Origin: a virus
Strand: one strand, 5' to 3'
DNA: 64,000 nucleotides
IMG/VR virus record: IMGVR_UViG_3300045012_000066
Span: 1 to 64,000 of that record
Shown here in pieces: positions 33,774 to 35,119 of the stretch; the first letter of the stretch is position 1, and each line of letters opens with the position of its first letter. The notes beneath the pieces are model-generated. The model saw only the letters and a program-made list of their open reading frames with translations, did not search any database and had not been told where the DNA came from. A program made the translations under genes and the position numbers.

Positions 33774-34004
33774 GGCAAGGCAGGCGAGGCGTGGTCGGGT
33801 CCGGCGCGGCCAAGCGCGGTATGGCATGGCACGGCAAGGCAGGTATGGCAAGGTGTGGCAAGGTGTGGTGCGGTGTGGTGCGGTGCGGCAGGCTGGGCGT
33901 GGTCGGGTAAGGTCTGGCGGGGCGCGGTCGGGCACGGCACGGCAGGTGTGGCTAGGCATGGCAATGCCCGCTGCGGCTGGGTGTGGTCGGGCAAGGCGTG
34001 GCAA
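33774..34004 (+). repeat. GGY-NN pentamer array 1 (candidate guide RNA gene)
   Basis: 43 pentamers (40 of them GGYNN) punctuated by four GGCA tetramers at 33779, 33838, 33887 and 33941. Confidence 0.9.
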
Positions 34005-34010
34005 GTAAGC

Positions 34011-34043
34011 CGGGAGGGACGTTTTTTAAAACCGTCTCTCCCG
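34011..34043 (+). terminator. hairpin after array 1 (terminator or processing site)
   Basis: CGGGAG-GGACG ... CGTCT-CTCCCG. Confidence 0.5.
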
Positions 34044-34140
34044 AAAACCTCAACCCCTTAAACGGTGGCATTAAACGCGGCCCTTCTTACGACAAGCTCG
34101 TAGCGGGCGCATATTTAGACGCCACAATGAGGAAAACAAA

Positions 34141-34845
34141 ATGGCTGTTAATAATCCGAAACTGAAGCCGACAGTGGATGTAACGCAAGTAAACACTGCC
34201 GAATTAAAATCCAAAATTCCACCTGCCTCAAAAGTCATCATGATCAAGCCTCCAAGGCTGGAGGTTGTGGAATTTCCCGTGCGGGGCACAGCACCACTGG
34301 TGGTCCATCGCATGTCGGCAAAACTTAAGGCGCAGTTGAAGGCTATCGCCGAAGGTACAGCGTCGAAGGGTGCGCGAAAGGTGCGTGAACCCATGGACTC
34401 AGACGCTCTTTACATGCAAGCCCGCTACATCAGCAAGGAAGGTTGGGACGGGTTTCATGCAGGGGGAATTCGCAACGCGCTGATTTCAGCTTGCCGCTTA
34501 GTGAATTACAAGATGACGCTAGCGAAGCTCAGCCTCTTTGTGATTGCTGATGGATGGGACGCAATTGAGCCGCAGCATCCACTTGTTCGCATTTATGGCG
34601 AGCCTGTTAAGCAGGAGGATGTGGCTCGCGTGGAAACCGGTCAGCCGTATATCGCTGTGCGACCGGCGTACTACAACTGGAGTGCCAAAATTAAGCTCCA
34701 GTATGACGCCGACCAGTTCAGCGTGAACGATGTAGCAAACCTCCTTCACCGTGTCGGTAAACAGGTGGGAATCTGCGAGGGCCGTCCTGACTCAAAGCGC
34801 TCTCCCGGAGTGGGCTGGGGAACGTTCGAGCTTGTAGAGGACTAG
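34141..34845 (+). CDS. solo Cas7-like RAMP protein (Vipr-like)
   Basis: N-terminal strand FPVRGTAPLVVHR, GGIRNALISAC (alpha1), C-terminal Gly-rich loop GICEGRP.....GVGWGTFEL; no other cas genes; flanked by GGY-NN arrays. Confidence 0.75.
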   Translation: MAVNNPKLKPTVDVTQVNTAELKSKIPPASKVIMIKPPRLEVVEFPVRGTAPLVVHRMSAKLKAQLKAIAEGTASKGARKVREPMDSDALYMQARYISKEGWDGFHAGGIRNALISACRLVNYKMTLAKLSLFVIADGWDAIEPQHPLVRIYGEPVKQEDVARVETGQPYIAVRPAYYNWSAKIKLQYDADQFSVNDVANLLHRVGKQVGICEGRPDSKRSPGVGWGTFELVED

Positions 34846-34853
34846 GTTTCACT

Positions 34854-34887
34854 GGGCGGCTACTGTCTCAAAGTAGCCGCCCTTCTT
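34854..34887 (+). terminator. 10-bp hairpin between the RAMP gene and array 2
   Basis: GGGCGGCTAC-tgtctcaaa-GTAGCCGCCC followed by TTCTT. Confidence 0.6.
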
Positions 34888-34900
34888 AAGAGGCGTAGCA

Positions 34901-35119
34901 GGCGCGGCATGGCGCGGTTCGGTATGACGCGGTCGGGCGCGGCAAGGCAAGGCAAGGCAGGCGTGGCGTGGCAGGTACGGTACGGCGTGGCTGGGTTTGG
35001 CCGGGTACGGTGCGGCGCGGCTTGGCATGGCAGGGCAAGGCTTGGCAAGGTTCGACGGGGCGGGGCCCGGTCTGGCGCGGCAGGTACGGCAAGGTGAGGG
35101 TAAGGCCACGGCGAGGCGT
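34901..35119 (+). repeat. GGY-NN pentamer array 2
   Basis: 37 pentamers up to 35097 (35 of them GGYNN) with GGCA punctuation, then a degenerate tail up to the RBS at about 35120. Confidence 0.9.

What the first reader, a model, noticed from the sequence alone, without database searches (positions are those of the whole stretch)
33774..35119. Solo Cas7-like RAMP flanked by GGY-NN pentamer arrays: candidate non-contiguous-code RNA-guided system
Seen: a 234-aa protein with the RAMP/Cas7 N-terminal strand and C-terminal Gly-rich loop is flanked on both sides by about 80 tandem 5-nt units. In each unit GG(C/T) is fixed and only the last two bases vary. There is no CRISPR array and no other cas gene. 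Established: Cas7 proteins polymerise along a guide RNA with a fixed nucleotide step. Inference: each protomer clamps a GGY, and the NN dinucleotides together form the guide. From memory this matches recently reported phage VIPR systems (GGY/NN RNAs, gapped DNA target, transcriptional repression); I cannot verify that here.
Basis: partly seen in the sequence, partly recalled or inferred. Interest (0 to 1): 0.95.

Follow-up and report, generated by a model that had tools for sequence, protein, structure and literature searches.

The report
Phage VIPR locus, GGCA-punctuated guide arrays
A complete 122-kb phage carries a genuine VIPR system (a lone Cas7-like protein flanked by two arrays of five-base GGY-NN guide repeats), a CRISPR-related RNA-guided DNA silencer first described in 2026, so it is a real but already known kind of system.

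Summary

In 127 related loci, same-strand GGYNN arrays accompany the gene in 98; opposite-strand signals occur in 3. Phages with identical Vipr carry entirely different guides.

The arrays are tail-less and punctuated by a 4-nt GGCA unit (187 of 196 four-nt units), giving guides of about 10 pentamers. This fits the published but not sRNA-seq-confirmed 'staggered' class, not type II.

Differences: the clade's usual ~150-aa partner gene is absent from this phage, and I could not assign a VIPR type. No natural target was found: exact 1-nt-skip searches gave nothing but one probable chance hit.

This scan has noted VIPR-like loci on other DNA many times (243 notes). Verdict: new member of a known kind.

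The parts
33062..33772 (+). Upstream 236-aa gene of unknown function; weak candidate accessory (vap-like) gene. The array starts directly after its stop codon.
   Evidence: 28% identical (E 4e-22) to the gene in the accessory slot right after vipr in L009. No Pfam or NCBIfam family. Faint Cas11e hit at E 0.006. AF2 model too poor to test, pLDDT 52. Only 2 close homologues. Unrelated to the clade's usual partner and to SUSP1 vap1.
33774..34004 (+). Upstream vrRNA array. Short leader unit, then candidate guides U1 33783-33841, U2 33842-33890, U3 33891-33944 (each ending in the 4-nt GGCA unit) and U4 33945-34004 (last guide, no GGCA).
   Evidence: 44 GGY-led units. Guides of 11, 9, 10 and 12 pentamers. 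U1-U3 are followed by GGCAGG.
34012..34042 (+). Hairpin directly after the upstream array; possible terminator, attenuator or processing element.
   Evidence: stem of about 13 pairs. The 81-nt segment folds at -25.5 kcal/mol, z = -1.8, so modest support.
34141..34845 (+). vipr gene: 234-aa Cas7-like RAMP protein. Thumb R174; G-loop around E213-G214-R215-P216 followed by an 8-residue Gly-rich insertion and W226; beta-1 H56.
34854..34882 (+). Strong hairpin 9 nt after the vipr stop codon, followed by UUCUU; likely terminator or attenuator separating vipr from the downstream array.
   Evidence: -25.7 kcal/mol, z = -4.4, 0 of 200 shuffles fold as well.
34901..35119 (+). Downstream vrRNA array. D1 34901-34959; D2 34960-34973 (only 2 units); D3 34974-35082 (21 units, possibly two guides split at a 5-nt GGCAG at 35029-35033); D4 35083-35119 (degenerate, with two 6-nt units). 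It runs into the ribosome-binding site of the next gene.
35132..36418 (+). Neighbouring 428-aa exonuclease-like gene (phrog_69). Probably part of the phage DNA-metabolism block rather than the VIPR system.
   Evidence: phrog_69 E 1.1e-12. A homologue lies near vipr in only 1 of 80 related loci. No PDB, Pfam or NCBIfam match.

Best explanation
This is a VIPR (Viral Interference Programmable Repeat) system of the 'staggered array' class, carried by a complete 122-kb phage. Shown here: the 234-aa protein is a Vipr-family RAMP, and two same-strand arrays of GGY-NN pentamers flank its gene. A conserved 4-nt GGCA unit (a -1 register shift) cuts the arrays into guide-sized runs of about 9-12 pentamers. 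Relatives with identical protein carry different guides. Inferred from the published SUSP1 work: the arrays are transcribed with the surrounding + strand genes. Vipr protomers polymerise one per pentamer, with adjacent protomers jointly holding each GGY through H56, R174, E213 and R215. The exposed NN dinucleotides pair with double-stranded DNA that reads NN-x-NN-x (one base skipped). Binding silences transcription of a competing mobile element such as a rival phage, prophage or satellite. My own inference: in this tail-less clade the GGCA unit ends one filament and starts the next, because it puts the following GGY one base out of register. It would thus replace the pseudoknot tail of type II and the ribozymes of other types as the guide delimiter.
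Against: No expression, RNP or binding data exist for this locus or this clade. The paper states that sRNA-seq confirmed the ribozyme and single-vrRNA architectures but does not say so for staggered arrays. W178 of SUSP1, which stacks on G2, aligns with G214 here. The clade's usual ~150-aa partner (phrog_15946) is absent from this phage. No natural target was found for five guides. The single U2 hit looks like chance. Several units are degenerate, and D2 and D4 are unlikely to be working guides.
Confidence: 0.9

Rival explanations
1. It is a VIPR system that destroys rather than silences its targets. It would work with the exonuclease-like gene immediately downstream (35132-36418), as proposed for the nuclease-associated VIPR types III and V.
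For: The downstream array runs straight into that gene's ribosome-binding site. The gene matches the phage exonuclease family phrog_69. The paper reports nuclease or helicase accessory genes in types III-V.
Against: A homologue of this gene lies near vipr in only 1 of 80 related viral loci, at 25% identity. It sits in a co-directional DNA-metabolism block that includes an SbcC-like ATPase, which fits an ordinary phage recombination gene. Types III and V are described as enriched in cellular defence islands, not in phages.
Confidence: 0.1
2. It is a decaying or inactive VIPR remnant: the protein and repeats are recognisable but no longer function.
For: The usual partner gene is missing. Some units are degenerate, and D2 and D4 are irregular. 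No target was found.
Against: The ORF is intact, and the residues invariant across the family (R174, E213, R215, G-loop glycines) are kept. 73 of 86 units are perfect GGYNN, and GGCA punctuation is intact at six of seven guide ends. Internal degeneracy is described as frequent in working vrRNAs. A 91%-identical protein exists in another sample.
Confidence: 0.07
3. The pentamer tracts are not RNA guides. They would be protein-coding Gly/Arg-rich repeats or a DNA-level structural element (G-rich, quadruplex-prone) that happens to sit beside a Cas7-like gene.
For: Several ORFs of 54-144 aa can be drawn across the tracts. In Gordonia phage UmaThurman the equivalent tract is annotated as a CDS, gp40.
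Against: A 5-nt period with -1 shifts is incompatible with a conserved reading frame. The NN positions are near-random, while GGY is fixed on one strand only. The tracts track the vipr gene and its strand across many phyla. The same repeat is proven to be a Vipr-bound guide RNA in SUSP1.
Confidence: 0.02

Closest known systems
VIPR systems with 'staggered' vrRNA arrays (bioRxiv 10.64898/2026.04.26.720920, Results section and Fig. S18 legend)
   Same: Lone Vipr RAMP gene in a virus. GGY/NN pentamer arrays on the gene's strand. Adjacent guides abut with a 1-nt overlap, seen here as the 4-nt GGCA unit read as GGCA|GG. No structured tail and no ribozyme between guides.
   Different: The figure itself is not held, so I cannot confirm that the published junction is GGCA, nor which of types I-VII this clade is. 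This phage has arrays on both sides of vipr and lacks the clade's usual partner gene.
Type II VIPR of Escherichia phage SUSP1 (NC_028808.2; Vipr structure 36pp), the experimentally characterised reference
   Same: Homologous Vipr protein (hhalign 95.8%) with H, R, acidic and R contact residues kept. GGYNN repeats of similar number per guide. Guide regions on both sides of the operon. Phage-borne.
   Different: SUSP1 has discrete vrRNAs, each with a tail of about 45 nt (a pseudoknot per the paper), and no GGCA|GG junction. Its vap1 is unrelated to this clade's phrog_15946 partner and to the window's upstream gene. W178 is replaced by G214, and the G-loop carries an 8-residue insertion. Sequence identity is only about 20%.
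Class 1 CRISPR-Cas backbone subunits (Cas7 family: Csm3, Cmr4, type VII Cas7, Cas7-11 domains)
   Different: No CRISPR repeats, no other cas genes nearby, no adaptation genes. 5-nt rather than 6-nt step. The guide is read discontinuously. Sequence identity is 5-14%, and no cas HMM is hit.
TIGR-Tas systems (tandem interspaced guide RNA arrays)
   Same: Another non-CRISPR, array-encoded, short-period guide system found in phages. A TIGR-like 18/36-nt array is present in this same phage at window 6.7-10.6 kb.
   Different: Different period (18/36 nt), different repeats, and a different protein (Nop/IS110-related rather than RAMP). It is not part of this locus.

Membership tests
VIPR system | Vipr protein: minimal RAMP fold (RRM core, thumb, glycine-rich loop) | tested here: met
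VIPR system | Sequence homology to an established Vipr protein | tested here: met
   Profile A3 against PDB: 36pp 'SUSP1 Vipr protein', E 1.5e-7. One hit only in the SUSP1 genome, at vipr, E 6.8e-9. hhalign 95.8%, E 7.5e-9, 173 columns.
VIPR system | Residues that hold the GGY bases (SUSP1 H17, D177, R138, W178, R179) | tested here: inconclusive
   H56, E213, R174 and R215 align and are conserved in the family. W178 aligns with G214. An invariant W226 lies after an 8-residue insertion. So four of five are kept, and whether G2 stacking is retained is unknown.
VIPR system | Tandem GGY/NN (YNNGG) pentamer repeats next to vipr, with at least 4 units, conserved GGY and hypervariable NN | tested here: met
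   86 units in two arrays. NN columns carry 0.01-0.31 bits against 1.0-2 bits for GG across 177 junction contexts. Guides differ completely between phages with identical Vipr.
VIPR system | Non-CRISPR context: no CRISPR array and no other cas genes at the locus | tested here: met
   TRF finds no CRISPR-type array in the window. Neighbours within about 3.5 kb have no cas families in Pfam, PHROGs, NCBIfam or PADLOC, apart from one faint Cas11e score. The whole genome was not screened for cas genes.
VIPR system | Accessory gene (vap) adjacent to vipr | tested here: inconclusive
   The clade's usual ~150-aa partner (phrog_15946, in roughly 45-50 of 77 loci) has no member in this genome. The upstream gene 33062-33772 resembles the gene in the vap slot of one locus, L009. 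The paper says loci 'typically' have a vap, so this is not an absolute requirement.
VIPR system | Array RNA is expressed and co-purifies with Vipr | not testable with these tools
   Needs sRNA-seq and pull-down.
VIPR system | Guides match DNA targets under the 1-nt skip rule | tested here: inconclusive
   There was no exact match for U1, U3, U4, D1 or D3a in IMG/VR, for D3a or U1 in JGI metagenomes, or for D3a in GTDB genomes. U2 has one hit, with the skipped base at codon position 1, in an AT-rich contig; this is about the number expected by chance for 18 bases. Mismatch-tolerant search of large collections was not possible.
VIPR type II (SUSP1 / P. fulva clade) | Discrete vrRNAs each capped by a conserved structured 3' tail, with vap1 as partner | tested here: not met
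   The arrays here are continuous and have no tails. SUSP1 has tails and no GGCA|GG. vap1 is unrelated to the local candidates. So this is not type II.
VIPR 'staggered array' architecture | Adjacent vrRNAs overlap by 1 nt, so the end of one marks the start of the next | tested here: met
   A 4-nt GGCA unit followed by GGY recurs every 7-12 pentamers. 187 of 196 four-nt units in 127 loci plus this genome are GGCA. Six of seven local guides are followed by GGCAGG.
CRISPR-Cas class 1 effector (Cas7) | CRISPR repeat-spacer array and partner cas genes (Cas5, large and small subunits, Cas6) | tested here: not met
   None at the locus. It shares the fold only.

The most novel reading that the evidence does not exclude
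In this large, tail-less Vipr clade the guide boundary is set purely by register. A single 4-nt GGCA unit shifts the next GGY by one base and so ends one Vipr filament and seeds the next. This would be a protein-measured 'comma' that needs neither a structured tail nor a ribozyme, and perhaps no RNA cleavage at all. In addition, this phage would run two independent array-encoded guide systems (VIPR and a TIGR-like locus) side by side.
Probability: 0.35. Interest if true: 0.55.

Novelty: new member of a known kind. Interest (0 to 1): 0.35.

Why it matters
It adds a well-documented example, in a complete 122-kb phage genome, of the least characterised VIPR array architecture. It also gives numbers for that architecture across 127 loci: GGCA accounts for 95% of register shifts, guides are about 10 units long, and guide content turns over completely under an identical protein. 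It points to cultured phages with the same grammar (Gordonia phage UmaThurman and relatives on Gordonia terrae 3612; Cyanophage Cy-LDV1), where processing and targeting could be tested directly. It flags that such arrays are being annotated as protein-coding genes (UmaThurman gp40). It does not reveal a new class of system.

Tried and rejected
1. Natural targets.
- Exact 1-nt-skip patterns were searched for U3, D3a, U1, D1, U4 and U2 in IMG/VR, for D3a and U1 in JGI metagenomes, and for D3a in GTDB genomes.
- All gave nothing except one U2 hit (L134:2478-2503), which I judge to be chance. It lies in a 1154-aa minus-strand ORF of an AT-rich contig with the skipped base at codon position 1. It has 18 specified bases and does not extend.
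- Guide D3b was not searched in any public collection, and U2 only in IMG/VR.

2. Self-targets. The best matches cover 67-78% of NN bases, equal to shuffled-order controls.

3. Clade-wide cross-targeting. 162 guides were tested against about 0.8 Mb of fetched loci. Skip 1 was no better than skip 0 or 2, so the test is uninformative because the database is too small.

4. Downstream exonuclease as vap: not syntenic.

5. Upstream gene as accessory.
- It has no relation to phrog_15946 or to SUSP1 vap1.
- No relatives were retrievable from viral contigs, and there are only 2 close homologues.
- The Atlas was uninformative.
- The AF2 model has pLDDT 52, so no fold search was run.
- The Cas11e hit at E 0.006 is left as an untested lead.

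6. Rfam: no hammerhead or other family in 33500-35400.

7. Sigma-70 promoters: none found, and the host is unknown.

8. VIPR type I-VII assignment: not possible. Figures and supplementary tables are not held.

9. Host assignment: the Vipr clade is spread over many phyla on short MAG contigs, so no host can be inferred.

Full report
OBSERVATION

The window is the first 64 kb of a 122,463-bp IMG/VR virus record that CheckV rates as complete. Between 33774 and 35119, on the + strand, lies a 234-aa ORF (34141-34845) flanked by two tracts of pentamers.

When each tract is parsed at every GGY:
- The upstream tract (33774-34004) has 44 units, 38 of them exact 5-mers.
- The downstream tract (34901-35119) has 42 units, 35 of them exact.

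In the exact units, positions 1-2 are always G and position 3 is only C or T. Positions 4-5 use 12-14 different dinucleotides.

GGY pairs spaced by 5 nt reach 19 per 100 nt here. The 99th percentile elsewhere in the genome is 2. No window on the opposite strand, and no other place in the genome, reaches even 6.

THE PROTEIN

Pfam, NCBIfam and PADLOC give nothing. PHROGs places the protein in phrog_4652, of unknown function.

By sequence, the best PDB match is entry 36pp, 'SUSP1 Vipr protein':
- E 0.089 with the single sequence
- E 0.0085 with a shallow profile
- E 1.5e-7 with a profile of 64 diverse representatives

The same profile hits exactly one place in the 90.7-kb genome of Escherichia phage SUSP1 (NC_028808.2), inside a 201-aa frame annotated as a hypothetical protein, with E 6.8e-9. 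A profile-profile comparison gives 95.8% probability over 173 columns, which is nearly the whole reference protein.

The cryo-EM paper (10.64898/2026.04.26.720927) names the residues that hold the GGY bases. In the alignment:
- H17 maps to H56
- R138 maps to R174
- D177 maps to E213
- R179 maps to R215
- W178 maps to G214

The first four are conserved in this family. The family also has an 8-residue Gly-rich insertion just after this point, followed by an invariant W226.

The family is large: 2,778 clusters at 90% identity and 2,006 at 50% identity.

ASSOCIATION WITH ARRAYS

I fetched 80 related loci from IMG/VR and 47 from GTDB genomes spanning many phyla.
- Same-strand GGY arrays lie near the gene in 59 of 80 viral loci and 39 of 47 genome loci.
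- Marginal opposite-strand signals occur in 2 and 1 loci respectively.

ARRAY GRAMMAR

In every homologous array I printed, runs of pentamers are separated by a 4-nt unit GGCA followed directly by GGY. Across all loci:
- 187 of 196 four-nt units embedded between canonical pentamers are GGCA.
- 6-nt units are almost absent (2).
- NN columns carry 0.01-0.31 bits against 1.0-2 bits for the GG columns.
- The number of pentamers between junctions peaks at 10, mostly 7-12, for n = 203. The published range is 9-16 repeats per vrRNA.

In the window this gives candidate guides U1-U4 and D1-D4. Six of the seven usable guides are followed by GGCAGG. D2 has only 2 units, and D4 is irregular. D3 has 21 units and may be two guides.

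The discovery paper describes 'staggered arrays with overlapping vrRNAs', in which the vrRNAs derive from positions overlapping by 1 nt. That is what a GGCA|GG junction looks like. The paper states that sRNA-seq confirmed the ribozyme and single-vrRNA architectures, but it does not say this of staggered arrays.

By contrast, the reference type II arrays of SUSP1 are discrete vrRNAs, each followed by a tail of about 45 nt. They contain no GGCA|GG junction. Rfam finds no ribozyme or other family here.

GUIDE TURNOVER

L089 and L090 are two contigs of one MAG. Their Vipr proteins are 100% identical and their DNA is about 90% identical across the locus. The array leaders and trailers are conserved. 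Yet they share none of their 37 and 50 four-unit guide words, and they differ in guide number. L070 and L071 (91% identical Vipr) also share none. This is the behaviour expected of programmable guides.

ACCESSORY GENES

In most relatives a ~150-aa gene of phrog_15946 sits between vipr and the array: roughly 45-50 of 77 loci once translated-array artefacts are allowed for. This is the same gene order as SUSP1 vipr-vap1, but the two partner families are unrelated.

This phage has no member of that family anywhere in its genome. Two local genes were considered:
- The upstream gene 33062-33772 is 28% identical (E 4e-22) to the gene in that slot in one locus, L009. It has a faint Cas11e score. It is rare, and its model is too poor to test.
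- The downstream exonuclease-like gene (phrog_69) is not syntenic with vipr elsewhere.

TRANSCRIPTION SIGNALS

All genes from 30.6 to 39.4 kb are on the + strand. The upstream array begins right after the stop codon of the preceding gene and is followed by a hairpin at 34012-34042. A strong hairpin at 34854-34882 (z = -4.4) follows the vipr stop codon. The downstream array runs into the ribosome-binding site of the next gene. No sigma-70-like promoter was found, but the host is unknown.

TARGETS

I used the published rule: replace each GGY by one wildcard and search both strands.
- There is no self-target. The best matches cover 67-78% of NN bases, the same as controls with shuffled unit order. 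This agrees with the paper's own controls.
- Exact searches gave nothing for five guides in IMG/VR, two in JGI metagenomes and one in GTDB genomes. Guide D3b was not searched in any collection.
- The 18-base guide U2 has one exact hit, L134:2478-2503. It lies in a 1154-aa minus-strand ORF of an AT-rich contig, and the skipped base falls on codon position 1 rather than the wobble position. The match does not extend. One hit is about what chance allows for 18 bases.

What this phage's VIPR is aimed at therefore remains unknown. Mismatch-tolerant searches of large collections were not possible with these tools.

VERDICT

The locus meets the structural, sequence, repeat and context criteria of a VIPR system. 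It has the staggered array architecture. It is not type II, and I cannot assign its type because the figures and tables are not held.

The mechanism is inferred from SUSP1, not shown here: a Vipr filament on GGY, gapped NN pairing to double-stranded DNA, and transcriptional silencing of a competitor. The idea that GGCA acts as a register-based guide delimiter is my own inference from the sequence statistics.

The class is known from three 2026 preprints plus a language-model survey that recovered 99 VIPR-like clusters. This scan has already noted VIPR-like loci on other DNA many times: 243 notes in at least 208 genomes. It is a new member of a known kind.

Practical by-products:
- Cultured phages with the same grammar exist. 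Cyanophage Cy-LDV1 has two arrays, and Gordonia phage UmaThurman has one.
- In UmaThurman the array is annotated as CDS gp40.

Noticed in passing
window 6711-10639 (arrays about 6801-8737 and 9696-10633; ORF 8758-9651 +): About 3 kb of 18/36-nt periodic repeats, with two alternating CCA-ending motifs separated by short variable spacers, on both sides of a 297-aa ORF. The ORF has a weak IS110-family hit (PF02371, E 7.6e-5).
   Followed up: partly
L133:2624-2960 (Gordonia phage UmaThurman NC_031249.1, about 33349-33685): A GGCA-punctuated GGYNN array of about 60 units directly follows the vipr homologue gp39. It is annotated as protein-coding gene gp40, which is probably a miscalled ORF. The locus sits next to the integrase, immunity repressor and excise genes.
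   Followed up: partly
L132:2634-2830 and 3436-3590 (Cyanophage Cy-LDV1 BK059895.1): Two GGCA-punctuated arrays, one after the vipr homologue g34 (49% identical to the window's protein) and one after g33, lie upstream of a putative excisionase.
   Followed up: partly
L089 and L090 (two contigs of one uncultured Clostridia MAG): Two related phage contigs in one bin carry identical Vipr proteins and conserved array leaders and trailers, but completely different guide sets and guide numbers. This looks like cassette-like guide replacement.
   Followed up: yes
window 18975-19328 and 23788-23862: Five phage tRNA genes: Ser-GCT, Ser-CGA, Glu-TTC and Lys-TTT in a cluster, plus Trp-CCA.
   Followed up: no
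window 37508-39442: A 644-aa SMC/SbcC-like ATPase (phrog_77) that also scores against defence-system ATPases such as LmuB and PtuA. It is most likely a phage recombination or repair gene.
   Followed up: no
many related loci, e.g. L016, L020, L033, L071, L080, L132: Arrays of this clade tend to end with GGCA followed by GGCAA and then non-repeat sequence leading into the next gene's ribosome-binding site. This may be a conserved array terminator motif.
   Followed up: no
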